This document shows, in pieces, positions 36,401 through 39,400 of a stretch of DNA of 43,598 nucleotides. Made by a program: the position numbers. Source of the stretch: Candidatus Krumholzibacteriia bacterium (GTDB taxonomy: Bacteria; Krumholzibacteriota; Krumholzibacteriia; LZORAL124-64-63); contig JAZBOO010000110.1 of assembly GCA_036351155.1 (NCBI GenBank), positions 1 to 43,598 on the forward strand, given 5' to 3'. How positions within the stretch are numbered: position 1 is the first letter of the stretch; each line of letters starts with the position of its first letter.

Positions 36401-39400
36401 GGCGCACGATCGGCCGCCATTCCCGGGAAGGCTGCCGTCTGGTCGTTGCGCACCAGAGCGGGCCAGGGCACCAGCAGTTCCAGATTGTGGGGATTGTGAA
36501 TGGTCACCGTGAGGTCCTTCACCGGAACTCCCACCGGCTCCAGGAACACCTCGAACCCGGCCGCCCGAATTCCCCCGTTCACCTGGGTCGAAATATGACG
36601 CCGGATGTCCGTCTCCAGGCTGCTGCTGGGCATCAGGTCCACCCGGTAAATGAACCCGGTCCGCCTGGCCCCATCGGTTTGCAACCGCCAGCCATCCTGG
36701 GTGGGATCGATGATCAGATGCCTTCCCTGGCTCCCATCCTCCCCGATGGCGTGGGCAATGGGGGCACTGATGGTGACTCCGTTGTCATCTCCATTCACCC
36801 CGGGGGGGAACTCCAGATCCAGATTCCCGGGCAACGGTCCTTCGGCCAGCAAGGTGATGGTCAGGCTGCCCTGGGGGGCCTCCGTCAGGTCGATTTCATA
36901 GGTCAGCTCGATGGGCTTCTGAGGGTGGGGCAACAGAGGCCACGCCACCGCCACCAGCAGCAGGAGAATCACCAGCAGACGCACCGCTCTCCACTGGGCT
37001 TTCCTGCTCGGACGGGGGTCGGCTTCGTCCGGGGAACCCGCCCCCTTCTCGGGCGTGTCGGGCTTCTCCCCCCGGCGAGCCTTGTAGCGTTCCAGTGCGG
37101 TTTGCGATTTCCTGGACAAGCTGGATCTTCCTCTGCACGGTTTCTGCGGCCGGTGTTTTTTCCGGAACAACCGGATGGTTCCCTGTTGTTCCTGATTGTT
37201 CCCTGTCGTTCCTCGAATTGAGGACCTCACAGTCGGAGGATGCAACCGCCGTGCCGCTGTACTATGCTCTGGGCGACAATAACTTTTCCTTCCCGTGAAA
37301 GGTCGCCGAACGATGGATCTCAAGTTGCGCGGAAAAACCGCGCTGGTCACCGCGGGCAGCCGGGGATTTGGCAGGGCTGTGGCCCTGGAACTGGCGCGCG
37401 AGGGCGCCCACATCGCCATGTGCGCTCGAGGCGAAGAAGATCTGGCGCAGGCCGCCACCGAGGTCCGTGCCGCCGGCAGGGAAGTCTGGGGCGAAGCGGC
37501 CGGCAAGCTCCTCATCCAGCCGCTGGACGTGACCGACCACGAGGCCGTCTCCGGCTTTGTGACCCGTGTCGAGAACGAGCTGGCGCCGGTGGATCTCCTG
37601 CTGGTCAATGCCGGCGGCCCCCCCGCAGGGAACTTCGAAGACCTGGAGCTTTCCCACTGGGAGGCGGCCTACCGCCTGACCATTGAAAGCGCCGTCCGTC
37701 TGTGCCAGCTGGTCTTGCCGGGCATGAAGGCCCGGGGCTTCGGTCGTATCGTCAGCATCACCTCCGTGAGCGTGTGTCAACCGGTGGAGAACCTGGTGCT
37801 CAGCAGCGTTCTGCGCCCGGCCATCCAGGCCTTGACCCGCACCCTGTCGGCCGAGTCGGCCGCGTATGGCGTGACCGTCAATGCCGTGGCTCCCGGCTTT
37901 CACACCACCAGCGCCGTGGAGCGGCTGATCACCAAGAAAGTGGAGCTCACCGGCTGCACCCCCGACGAGGTGATTGCCGGCTGGACCCGGGAAATCGACA
38001 TGGGCCGCCTGGGCAGACCCGAGGAGCTGGCCGCCTTGATCGTTTTCCTCATGTCCGAACGCGCCAGCTATATCACCGGGCAGGGCATTGTGTCGGATGG
38101 GGGCTGGGTCAAAGGCCACTTCTAGGAATTCGCCCGGCTTGACATCCCGGCCAATGAAGCTACATTATCGGTCAACGAGTTGCGAAGATATAAGGCTGAA
38201 CTGGAGGCTTCCTCCTTCTTGGTGTCAGCCCATTGACTGACTATTTTCGAAAGATCAGGCCATGCTTGAGTTTGCCCTTTTCATCGTATTCTGGATTGTC
38301 CTGGTGAATTTCATATTCCCCAAGATGGGCCTGAAGCCCGGTTGAGGCCCCAGCGCCTGCTCGATCGGCGATCGGGAACCGGAGAACAAAAAAACCACCC
38401 AACCGGAAATCAAGCCCGGCGAATAAAGTGGAGGTGTGGCGATGCCACTTTATGAGTTCACCTGCAAGAAATGCGGACACAATTTCGAAGAGTTGATGAC
38501 CCTCAGCGAAGTCGAGTCCGGCAAGACCAAGTGCCCGGCCTGCAGCTCGAAACGCCTCGAGCGCGGTTTTTCCAGCTTTGCCACCGGCGGTGGGGACAGC
38601 CTGGGCTCAGGTGGGTTCTCGGGCGGCGGCTGTGGCAGTGGCGGCGGCGGCTTCACCTGAGGCTAGCCAGCCAGGGCGACCGTGTGTCGTCAACAAGATC
38701 ATGCGCGCCGGAAGCCTCGGGTTTCCGGCGTTTTTTCTGAGAGTGGGCCGATAGGACGGCGAACATTCCCGGACCTGGGATGACCGCTGATGCACCAGGG
38801 CATGACACGCACTGCACAGCGTGGTCAGGTTCTCGGGATCGTGGGTCCCGCCCCGGGCGCGGGGGATGATGTGGTGGATCTCCAGGAAGTGGGTGTGGGG
38901 GCAGCCGGGAGTCTGGCACCGGTGGCGGTCGCGGGCGAGGACCAGGCGCCGCGTTCTGGGCGGAATGGTGGTGGTGTTGCGGTGGTCTGGCTCGCTGATC
39001 TGGGCGTCGCACTGGAGGCGCGCGGTTTCCTCGGGCGAAAGCGTGAGCTCCCCGCGCGCCGTCTGGACCGTGGTCTTTTCACAATCCGGGCACTGGTGCA
39101 CGTGGATCTGGACCGGGGGCGCCGTGGTGGGTTTTTCCAACGGGTTGGAATTTCCATCAACGAAATTCTGCATCACTTCCAGCAGCGCCTCGACCTTGTC
39201 TGCCGGCAAGCCGCCCTGCTTGCGCAGCTTCTCCCACAGGGCTTCGTAGCGGGCCAGCTGGGTGGGTGTCATTTCCAGGATCACGCGCTGGGGGATGGGG
39301 GCGGCCGGCACGGGCTCCTCGGGAAAAATCGCCACCTGTCCTTTCGCCACCTCGGCAGCCCGGGCCTTGGCTTTTTTCACCGTGCTTTTCAACCGGGCGT

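What a model noticed while it worked through the whole genome (the two positions that open the first line are those of the whole stretch)
38262..38426. Uncalled 54-residue membrane selenoprotein (PG-U-GPxxC-SIGDR)
An ORF missed by the gene caller between g01030 and g01031 encodes a 54-residue protein: one N-terminal transmembrane helix, then an in-frame TGA (C110:38343-38345) read as selenocysteine in the motif P-[KR]-[ML]-G-L-x-P-G-U-G-P-x-x-C-S-I-G-D-R (a U-x4-C pair), then a short variable acidic tail. It defines a new, very small selenoprotein family that is invisible in protein databases because every copy is cut to 27 residues at the TGA.
Evidence so far: Six-frame searches with the read-through peptide: in 41 genomes of the family LZORAL124-64-63, 35 of 36 matches in other genomes have one TGA inside (the 36th is a weak hit, E 0.003, inside a long ORF); in 111 genomes of the class, 47 of 47 matches in other genomes, from five families of the phylum, have one TGA at the site and never TAA or TAG there. 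A true gene boundary tested the same way (C70:16866) showed TGA, TAG and TAA mixed. Peptide conservation goes on past the TGA (G-P-x-x-C-S-I-G-D-R in this genome, call 61, and in 5 of 5 other loci read, call 64), differences there sit at third codon positions (GGC/GGU/GGG, CCG/CCA, CGG/CGA), and the ORFs end at different downstream stops. Hairp [...]
(Added by a program. Inside this text positions count along the whole contig: contig position 1 is position 1 of the stretch shown here. "Call 12" and the like, gene names such as g00115 and contig names such as C1 are that model's own, and its searches are not shown. The text may have been shortened before it was handed on; [...] marks where a part breaks off. 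The agent that wrote the report below was given it as the finding of a first reader that could run no searches.)

Follow-up and report, generated by a model that had tools for sequence, protein, structure and literature searches.

The report
Tiny membrane selenoprotein, widespread, uncatalogued
An unannotated 54-codon gene encodes a membrane-anchored mini-protein whose in-frame TGA is almost certainly read as selenocysteine, and it belongs to a large, uncatalogued bacterial family in which other members carry cysteine at that spot.

Summary
The ORF 38262-38426 (+) is real. It encodes 54 residues: a helix at residues 2-21, an in-frame TGA at 38343-38345, and a second Cys five codons later.

- **Sec machinery:** the genome has selA, selB, a Sec-form selD and tRNA-Sec.
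- **The site:** it is TGA in 49 of 49 relatives from the window's family, 80 of 80 metagenome loci and 69 of 80 species genomes. The other 11 have TGC or TGT. It is never TAA or TAG, while the ORFs' real stops are mixed.
83 of 234 database relatives have Cys at the site, and 79 of those keep the second Cys.
- **Hairpin:** a 7-bp hairpin with a GGN loop starts 22 nt after the UGA and shows compensatory changes. It fits the bacterial SECIS consensus.
- **S-I-G-D-R is an RNA footprint:** Cys forms lack it (2 of 78 against 49 of 49).
- **Range:** the family spans Acidobacteriota, Planctomycetota and other phyla.
- **Novelty:** it has no Pfam or NCBIfam model and is absent from a 2026 catalogue of 119 selenoprotein families.

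The function is inferred only: a U/C-x4-C redox or metal-binding site at the inner face of the membrane. In the window's class the gene forms an operon with an FmdB zinc-ribbon gene. There is no selenium-labelling or proteomic evidence.

The parts
38139..38168 (+). sigma-70-like promoter (TTGACA, 16-18 nt spacer, TACATT/CATTAT) upstream of the two-gene unit
   Evidence: 10 of 12 matches; 2 such sites found against 0.2 expected in shuffles. This is a consensus match only.
38262..38426 (+). selenoprotein gene: 54 codons plus a TAA stop, not called under table 11
38265..38324 (+). residues 2-21: hydrophobic helix, read as a single transmembrane anchor
   Evidence: AlphaFold2 helix 2-21 with pLDDT 87-93. 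K+R are almost all on the C-terminal side.
38343..38345 (+). in-frame TGA read as selenocysteine (U28)
38343..38360 (+). U-x4-C motif (U28 to C33), the part of the tail shared by Sec and Cys forms
38360..38376 (+). bSECIS-type hairpin: arms 38360-38366 and 38370-38376, loop GGC at 38367-38369. It lies inside the codons for C-S-I-G-D-R-E.
38442..38660 (+). FmdB-family zinc-ribbon gene (72 aa), starting 15 nt after the selenoprotein's stop
   Evidence: TIGR02605 62.5 bits, PF09723 54.7 bits
38705..38741 (+). intrinsic-terminator-like hairpin (12 pairs) plus a T run, closing the unit
37295..38125 (+). upstream short-chain dehydrogenase gene; a neighbour, not shown to belong to the unit

Best explanation
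**What it is.** 38262-38426 is a genuine selenoprotein gene. A ribosome translating the 27 hydrophobic N-terminal codons reaches UGA at 38343. SelB with Sec-tRNA(Sec) binds the 7-bp hairpin with a GGN loop that begins 15 nt after the UGA, with its loop from the 22nd nt, and inserts selenocysteine. Translation then runs on through the second Cys and a charged, disordered tail to TAA at 38424.

**The product.** It is a 54-residue single-pass membrane micro-protein. Its U-x4-C pair sits about eight residues beyond the helix, most likely on the cytoplasmic face.

**The family.** It is large and lies mostly in soil and sediment bacteria. Members have Sec or Cys at this position.

**Shown.**
- The recoding signature.
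- The hairpin with covariation.
- Sec/Cys pairs.
- The Sec machinery.
- The operon with an FmdB zinc-ribbon gene in this class.

**Inferred.**
- The U/C-x4-C pair cycles between selenol/thiol and selenylsulfide, or binds a soft metal or sulfur species.
- It is served by thioredoxin-type partners.
For: **Sec machinery in this genome.**
- selB 329.7 bits and selA 452.7 bits, both over their cut-offs.
- tRNA-SeC with anticodon tca.
- selD 362 bits, with its own in-frame TGA.

**Only TGA or a Cys codon at the site.**
- 49 of 49 family loci.
- 80 of 80 metagenome loci.
- 69 TGA, 10 TGC and 1 TGT in 80 species genomes.
- Real stops of the same ORFs are mixed.

**Cys homologues.**
- 83 of 234 database relatives have Cys at the site, and 79 of those have the second Cys 3-5 residues on.
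- The second Cys is also kept in 49 of 49, 68 of 69 and 79 of 80 TGA forms.

**Hairpin.**
- 95.4% of cells are paired across 47 distinct sequences.
- 15 cells have changes on both sides, against 3.4 +/- 1.4 in shuffles (0 of 500 shuffles reach 15).
- One pair is A-U in 35 sequences and G-C in 12, and is never broken. This is an Ile/Val first base paired with an Asp third base.
- Slid registers pair only 23-57%.

**Hairpin in other phyla.**
- The stem sequence differs but the place is kept.
- 63 of 69 loops start 20-24 nt after the UGA.
- 66 of 69 loops have G in the first two positions.
- The 11 Cys forms have no common loop or position.
- This fits the bSECIS consensus quoted in PMC13188914 (passage seen): G in the first two positions of a small apical loop, 16-37 nt from the UGA.
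- The genome's own selD has a GGG-loop hairpin starting 18 nt after its UGA.

**selB in other genomes.** It scores over the cut-off in 5 of 5 TGA-form genomes tested and in 2 of 5 Cys-form genomes.

**Structure and topology.**
- Helix at residues 2-21, the rest coil.
- K+R average 0.08 before the helix and 1.9 in the 18 residues after it.

**Redox and sulfur context elsewhere.**
- One relative is fused to thioredoxin (P0166).
- Immediate neighbours, counted in 80 species loci:
  - thioredoxin in 3 loci
  - AhpC/redoxin in 2
  - YgaP-like TM in 3
  - OsmC in 3
  - TauE in 3
  - ZAS-type anti-sigma in 4
  - DUF302 in 13

**RNA libraries.** Contigs from RNA libraries of two studies span the TGA, the hairpin and the FmdB start: X5 covers 38312-38543 with 0 differences, and X20 covers 38320-38531.
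Against: - There is no selenium labelling, mass spectrometry or ribosome profiling. RNA-library contigs do not prove transcription, still less recoding.
- Folding energy alone is not distinctive. The z-score is -0.78 for the window. The median z is -1.0 for TGA forms and -0.9 for Cys forms.
- RNAalifold gave no consensus over 66 diverse sequences, because the hairpins sit in different registers.
- Rfam has no match.
- The tail after the hairpin shows no codon-position bias in the only 3 close pairs available (1st:2nd:3rd = 8:6:9). Translation of the tail therefore rests on the open frame and on the Cys forms, not on substitution pattern.
- 13 of the 144 phylum genomes with the TGA gene gave no selB match at E <= 1e-60. 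They are 60-96% complete.
- The function has no direct evidence. Neighbours differ from phylum to phylum and none is universal.
Confidence: 0.87

Rival explanations
1. **Selenium-gated leader.** Recoding at the UGA mainly controls the downstream FmdB gene. With selenium, ribosomes read through and stop 1-68 nt before the FmdB start, which allows translational coupling. Without selenium, they stop about 80 nt further upstream. On this reading the peptide itself is secondary.
For: - 48 of 49 family loci have an FmdB-type start 1-68 nt after the read-through stop; the 49th locus runs off its contig.
- 6 of 10 loci from other families of the phylum have it too.
- One promoter-like site and one terminator bracket both genes.
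- The tail evolves fast.
Against: - Outside this class the gene stands without FmdB: only 3 of 80 species loci have it, and those 3 belong to the window's family.
- The helix, the P-x-x-G context and the U/C-x4-C pair are conserved across phyla and in Cys forms, which need no gating.
- This rival is compatible with the main reading as an added layer.
Confidence: 0.1
2. **True stop.** The TGA is a real stop. The product is a 27-residue hydrophobic peptide, and the conserved hairpin is a regulatory or terminator element unrelated to SelB.
For: - Table 11 gives a 27-codon ORF.
- 117 database entries are called that way.
- Hairpin energy is not exceptional.
Against: - A true stop would drift among TGA, TAG and TAA, as the terminal stops do. 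This site never does, in 49 + 80 + 69 loci.
- It alternates only with Cys codons.
- The in-frame second Cys is kept in both forms.
- Indels between the TGA and that Cys are whole codons.
- No T run follows the hairpin.
Confidence: 0.03
3. **Metal or metalloid ligand.** It is a genuine selenoprotein, but the U/C-x4-C pair binds a soft metal or metalloid (Hg, Cu, Zn, As, Se/Te) at the membrane and hands it to a transporter or to the zinc-ribbon partner. It is not a redox relay.
For: - Some loci adjoin RND pumps (3), P-type ATPases (2) or TauE-type exporters (3) among 80.
- The partner in this class is a four-Cys zinc ribbon with an invariant fifth Cys in its tail.
- The 2026 catalogue lists membrane and metal-binding selenoproteins, namely a MerT-like protein, a P-type ATPase and a SO_0444 efflux protein (Table 1 of PMC13188914, read).
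Against: - Thioredoxin fusion and adjacency, and peroxiredoxin-like and OsmC neighbours, point to thiol redox.
- No metal-sensing regulator was seen next to the gene in the 132 neighbours scanned.
- Neither function is tested.
Confidence: 0.2

Closest known systems
Bacterial UxxC / CxxU redox selenoproteins (thioredoxin, glutaredoxin, Prx-like; Table 1 of PMC13188914)
   Same: Sec is paired with a nearby Cys. There are many Cys-form homologues, and a bSECIS hairpin sits inside the coding sequence right after the UGA.
   Different: There is no thioredoxin fold and no other Pfam or NCBIfam domain. The spacing is x4, not x2. The proteins are 42-68 residues long, with a single membrane helix and an otherwise disordered chain.
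Eukaryotic SELENOK and SELENOS (recalled, not tested beyond the Pfam scan)
   Same: They work alike in outline: very small single-pass membrane selenoproteins with a disordered cytosolic tail carrying the Sec.
   Different: No sequence relation was found. In those proteins Sec lies at the far C-terminus, they sit in the ER membrane, and the SECIS is in the 3' UTR. Here Sec is next to the membrane and the SECIS is in the ORF.
MerT-like putative mercuric transport selenoprotein (PF02411, C/SxxU; Table 1 of PMC13188914)
   Same: It is a membrane protein with a Sec/Cys pair near the membrane surface.
   Different: It is a multi-helix transporter family with a different motif. There was no PF02411 match at E <= 1.
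FmdB family zinc-ribbon proteins (TIGR02605), listed with UxxU selenoprotein forms in PMC13188914
   Same: The downstream gene is a member (62.5 bits against a cut-off of 31.3). The family is known to have Sec forms elsewhere.
   Different: The window's FmdB is an all-Cys form. The finding itself is not a zinc ribbon.
E. coli fdhF-type bacterial SECIS (consensus as quoted in PMC13188914, section 5)
   Same: A stem-loop directly downstream of the UGA, with a small apical loop carrying G in its first two positions, 16-37 nt from the UGA. Here the loop is GGN or GUC and starts 20-24 nt after the UGA.
   Different: SelB binding is not tested. The loop has only 3 nt, and no bulged U was looked for.

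Membership tests
Bacterial selenoprotein gene (Sec-UGA with bSECIS) | In-frame UGA kept across orthologues, with no other stop codon at the site | tested here: met
   The site is TGA in 49/49, 80/80 and 69/80 loci, and the remaining 11 are Cys codons. Terminal stops are mixed. All but 1 of 148 matches in the phylum carry TGA.
Bacterial selenoprotein gene (Sec-UGA with bSECIS) | The genome encodes selA, selB, selD and tRNA-Sec | tested here: met
Bacterial selenoprotein gene (Sec-UGA with bSECIS) | Stem-loop downstream of the UGA, with the apical loop 16-37 nt away and G in its first two positions | tested here: met
   Window: 7-bp stem, GGC loop, 22nd nt after the UGA. Covariation is shown. 63 of 69 loops lie at 20-24 nt and 66 of 69 have the G.
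Bacterial selenoprotein gene (Sec-UGA with bSECIS) | Homologues with Cys aligned to the UGA | tested here: met
   83 of 234 database relatives; 11 of 80 species genomes with TGC or TGT.
Bacterial selenoprotein gene (Sec-UGA with bSECIS) | Protein-level conservation continues past the UGA | tested here: met
   The second Cys is kept in Sec and Cys forms, and indels are whole codons. The far tail shows no constraint.
Bacterial selenoprotein gene (Sec-UGA with bSECIS) | Selenium is actually incorporated, dependent on SelB and the SECIS | not testable with these tools
   Needs 75Se labelling or mass spectrometry.
Any catalogued prokaryotic selenoprotein family (119 in PMC13188914 Table 1; NCBIfam and Pfam models) | Match to the family's model or motif | tested here: not met
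   There were 0 families at E <= 1 for the window's peptide in NCBIfam and Pfam. Ten short Sec- and Cys-form relatives gave nothing above cut-off, and the eleventh, the fusion protein P0166, matched only through its thioredoxin part. Parts 1-2 of section 7 of the paper, which hold all of Table 1, list no U-x4-C membrane peptide.
FmdB family zinc ribbon (the neighbour, not the finding) | TIGR02605 / PF09723 over the cut-off, with two CxxC pairs | tested here: met
   62.5 bits (cut-off 31.3) and 54.7 bits (cut-off 34.4). C8, C11, C31 and C34 are invariant.
SELENOK/SELENOS-type membrane selenoproteins | Sequence relation to the eukaryotic families | tested here: not met
   No Pfam match. The likeness is one of architecture only.

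The most novel reading that the evidence does not exclude
This is a previously uncatalogued and very widespread family of single-pass membrane micro-selenoproteins. Its juxtamembrane U-x4-C selenylsulfide would be a thioredoxin-linked relay for reactive sulfur, selenium or peroxide species at the inner face of the membrane. In the window's class, read-through of the UGA would also couple selenium supply to translation of an FmdB zinc-ribbon partner that carries an invariant tail Cys.
Probability: 0.25. Interest if true: 0.8.

Novelty: new member of a known kind. Interest (0 to 1): 0.7.

Why it matters
- **A new selenoprotein family.** It adds a family to the bacterial selenoproteome in phyla where selenium use is little charted: Acidobacteriota, Planctomycetota, Methylomirabilota-type lineages and the window's own phylum. 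It is common. One 9-residue pattern found 351 relatives in metagenome contigs and 255 in species genomes. The Sec form far outnumbers the Cys form among the loci read.
- **An annotation blind spot.** 117 database entries are 26-40-residue stubs and 25 carry a false Trp.
- **RNA shaping protein sequence.** The SECIS hairpin dictates five residues (S-I-G-D-R). An Ile-to-Val change is matched by a silent GAT-to-GAC change across the stem.
- **A simple test system.** At 42-68 residues the protein is small enough to study Sec against Cys chemically with synthetic peptides. A cultured planctomycete carries a TGA form (L179).

Tried and rejected
- **Folding energy as evidence.** It is not significant for the window (z -0.78) and no different between TGA and Cys forms. 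I dropped it in favour of position and covariation.
- **Rfam scan of 37500-39200.** It returned only a chance miRNA hit at E 7.6.
- **Distance to the next stop in the three frames.** This was uninformative, because the other frames run into the next gene.
- **Codon-position test on tails.** Only 3 usable pairs, giving 8:6:9, so no signal.
- **Association of the gene with selB inside the family and phylum.** This was uninformative, because selB is nearly universal there (57 of 60 and 191 of 208 genomes).
- **FmdB as a universal partner.** Rejected: only 3 of 80 species loci have it, all from the window's family.
- **ESM Atlas.** It returned one unnamed cluster at score 0.85, which is only a lead.
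- **RNA-library contigs.** They cover the unit but cannot show transcription or recoding. Depth gaps elsewhere mean nothing.
- **The search for related loci with the broad alignment A3.** I used the narrower A4 instead.
- **The Cys forms P0002 and P0006.** They were not among the 80 metagenome loci returned, so their DNA was not seen.
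Full report
**What is in the window.**

Under table 11 the stretch holds only a 27-codon ORF, 38262-38345. Read through its TGA (38343-38345), the frame stays open to TAA at 38424-38426. It then gives MLEFALFIVFWIVLVNFIFPKMGLKPGUGPSACSIGDREPENKKTTQPEIKPGE, 54 residues.

AlphaFold2 on a 29-member alignment predicts one confident helix at residues 2-21 (pLDDT 87-93) and coil after it. Lys and Arg lie almost entirely after the helix: a mean of 0.08 before it and 1.9 in the next 18 residues, over 49 family members. 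By the positive-inside rule, the Sec-bearing tail is therefore cytoplasmic. This is an inference.

A sigma-70-like promoter match lies at 38139-38168 and a 12-pair terminator-like hairpin at 38705-38731. Together they bracket this ORF and the next gene, 38442-38660. That gene is an FmdB-family zinc ribbon (TIGR02605 62.5 bits, PF09723 54.7 bits).

An SDR gene lies upstream. An HNH-domain gene, a PAP2 gene and an epimerase gene lie downstream on the other strand.

**Is the TGA a selenocysteine codon?**

The genome has the full machinery:
- selB at 329.7 bits and selA at 452.7 bits, both over their cut-offs.
- A tRNA-SeC with anticodon tca.
- A selD that itself has an in-frame TGA at the classical site.

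- 52 of 61 genomes of the family have a match. Of 54 matches, 53 carry the TGA. The exception is a weak hit (E 0.0026) inside a 247-aa frame.
- With a profile, 144 of 208 genomes of the phylum have a match. All but one of 148 matches carry TGA. The exception stops at profile position 27, short of the site.

I extracted 49 family genes. All have TGA at the site.

As an internal control, I looked at the stops that end the read-through ORFs. They are TGA 24, TAG 16 and TAA 9. A real stop drifts among the three codons, and this site does not.

**Cys homologues exist.**

A profile of the family was searched against two protein collections and returned 234 distinct relatives.

| Residue at the site | Relatives |
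|---|---|
| Chain ends exactly there | 117 |
| Cys | 83 |
| Trp | 25 |
| Ser | 2 |
| Leu | 2 |
| Arg | 1 |
| Gly | 1 |
| Motif not found | 3 |

- Of the 83 Cys forms, 79 have a second Cys 3-5 residues further on.
- The Trp forms are TGA read by another table. The two I could match to DNA (P0004 = L126, P0017 = L148) have TGA.

At the DNA level:
- A scan of metagenome contigs found 351 relatives. All 80 that were returned have TGA.
- A scan of one genome per species found 255 relatives. Of the 80 returned, 69 have TGA, 10 TGC and 1 TGT.
- The second Cys is in frame in 68 of 69 and 79 of 80 TGA forms, and in 49 of 49 family genes (TGC 47, TGT 2).
- The spacing between U and C changes only by whole codons: 3, 4 or 5.

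selB scores over its cut-off in 5 of 5 TGA-form genomes tested and in 2 of 5 Cys-form genomes.

**The hairpin.**

In the window, C38360-C38366 pairs with G38370-G38376 around the loop GGC. This lies inside the codons TGC TCG ATC GGC GAT CGG G.

On the 49 family sequences (47 distinct):
- 95.4% of cells pair.
- 15 cells have changes on both sides, against 3.4 +/- 1.4 in shuffles (0 of 500 shuffles reach 15).
- Registers slid by 1-3 columns pair only 23-57%.

The clearest pair joins the first base of the Ile/Val codon to the third base of the Asp codon. ATC goes with GAT in 35 sequences and GTC with GAC in 12, with none broken. Ser-to-Ala (TCG to GCG) goes with a silent CGG-to-CGC change.

In other phyla the stem sequence is different. 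Typical forms are GNC GTC GAG TCT CGA CGC with a GUC loop, or GCG GTG TCA CCG CGC. The position is kept, however:
- 64 of 69 TGA forms fold into a stem of 5 pairs or more.
- In 63 of 69 the loop starts 20-24 nt after the UGA.
- In 66 of 69 there is a G in the first two loop positions.
- The 11 Cys forms share no loop or position.

This fits the bSECIS consensus quoted in the review PMC13188914: G in the first two positions of a small apical loop, 16-37 nt from the UGA (passage seen). The genome's own selD has a 6-pair hairpin with a GGG loop starting 18 nt after its UGA.

Two results count against over-reading the hairpin:
- Folding energies are not distinctive.
- RNAalifold finds no single consensus over the diverse set.

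**What is protein and what is RNA in the motif.**

The residues S-I-G-D-R are the hairpin read as codons. x[IV]GD follows the second Cys in 49 of 49 family TGA forms but in only 2 of 78 Cys forms.

The parts shared by Sec and Cys forms across phyla are the helix, P-x-[LFM]-G-x-x-[TG], the U/C and the second Cys. The tail beyond is variable in length (42-68 residues in all for the family) and rich in charged residues. In the only three close pairs it shows no codon-position bias (8:6:9).

**Range and context.**

By record titles, the 80 species genomes include the following:
- Planctomycetota: Rhodopirellula, Thermoguttaceae, Isosphaeraceae, Gemmataceae, and the isolate Tautonia sp. JC769.
- Acidobacteriota: Terriglobia, Blastocatellia, Vicinamibacterales, Bryobacteraceae, Chloracidobacterium.
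- 'Delta proteobacteria', Rokubacteria, Binatia, Zixibacteria, Armatimonadota, Limnocylindrales and a Burkholderiales MAG.
- A Verrucomicrobiales MAG, which has a Cys form.
- MAGs labelled Fibrobacteraceae, whose genes are identical to members of the window's family.

In the window's family, 48 of 49 loci have an FmdB-type gene starting 1-68 nt after the read-through stop. The 49th locus runs off its contig. So do 6 of 10 loci from other families of the phylum. Only 3 of the 80 species loci have it, and all three belong to the window's family. These FmdB proteins have, besides the four ribbon Cys, an invariant Cys-Gly in the Gly-rich tail.

Elsewhere, 132 ORFs immediately next to the gene in the 80 species loci were scanned.

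| Neighbour | Loci |
|---|---|
| DUF302 (all in Acidobacteriota by title) | 13 |
| Usp | 4 |
| ZAS-type anti-sigma (zf-HC2) | 4 |
| Thioredoxin | 3 |
| AhpC/redoxin | 2 |
| YgaP-like TM | 3 |
| OsmC | 3 |
| TauE | 3 |
| Hemerythrin | 3 |
| RND pump | 3 |
| DsrE | 1 |
| Metallo-beta-lactamase with rhodanese | 1 |
| CoA-disulfide-reductase-like with rhodanese | 1 |

One database relative is fused in frame to a thioredoxin (P0166, TIGR01068 105.7 bits). This points to thiol or sulfur redox, but no neighbour is universal.

**Expression.**

Contigs assembled from RNA libraries of two studies span the TGA, the hairpin, the read-through stop and the start of FmdB: X5 covers 38312-38543 with 0 differences, and X20 covers 38320-38531. 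DNA can be present in such libraries, and contigs cannot show recoding, so this is a hint only.

**Comparison with what is known.**

Neither the window's peptide nor ten short Sec and Cys relatives match any Pfam or NCBIfam model at E <= 1 above cut-off. The eleventh protein scanned, the fusion P0166, matches only through its thioredoxin part.

I read parts 1-2 of section 7 of the 2026 review PMC13188914, which hold all of Table 1. The table lists 119 families and subfamilies. None is a U-x4-C membrane peptide. It does list Sec forms of the FmdB family.

For the other papers I saw passages only:
- The BSepDB paper (PMC13326102) covers 111 known families.
- The deep-Sep paper (PMC12013277) reports nine new families, none described as membrane peptides.

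Full-text searches for four motif strings found no paper. Two topical searches found nothing closer. Supplementary tables of these papers were not opened and could hold unnamed candidates.

**Verdict.**

The family is a new member of a known kind: a bacterial selenoprotein with an in-ORF SECIS. It is notable for its size, its membrane anchor, its breadth and the clean RNA-protein co-variation. The function is open. My best guess is a juxtamembrane selenylsulfide or dithiol redox site (about 0.5). A metal or metalloid ligand role (about 0.2) and a selenium-gating role for FmdB in this class (about 0.1, not exclusive) are the alternatives.

Noticed in passing
L239 (G000:C334) 2144-2146, minus strand: The genome's selD is itself a Sec form (in-frame TGA in the S-A-G-U-A-A-K site). 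It has a 6-pair hairpin with a GGG loop starting 18 nt after the UGA. This is a useful in-genome reference for SelB's target.
   Followed up: partly
window 38442-38660 and alignment A7: The FmdB zinc-ribbon proteins encoded after the selenoprotein gene have an invariant fifth Cys followed by Gly in the Gly-rich tail. They end in G-F-T, G-F-G or G-F-S in 42 of 46. A possible partner thiol for the Sec.
   Followed up: partly
protein P0166 (208 aa): A Cys-form member is fused in frame to a full thioredoxin. This could be a real fusion or a frameshifted pair of neighbouring genes. The DNA was not seen.
   Followed up: no
proteins P0071, P0189, P0129, P0224, P0121, P0142: These relatives have Ser, Leu, Arg or Gly at the Sec site. 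Each of those residues has a codon one base away from TGA. They could be true variants, sequencing errors or other translation tables. The DNA was not seen.
   Followed up: no
window 38203-38215 and 38224-38241: Two small hairpins lie in the roughly 90-nt leader between the promoter-like site and the start codon.
   Followed up: no
window 38610-39851, minus strand: A 414-aa ORF with an HNH endonuclease domain converges on the terminator of the selenoprotein-FmdB unit.
   Followed up: no
genus g61 of family f6 (e.g. L229): The frame around the match stays open for 128-191 codons. In L229 it simply runs open upstream of the start, with no evidence of a longer protein.
   Followed up: partly
13 of 144 genomes of the phylum that carry the TGA form gave no selB match at E <= 1e-60. 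They are 60-96% complete. Assembly gaps are the likely cause, but this was not checked.
   Followed up: no
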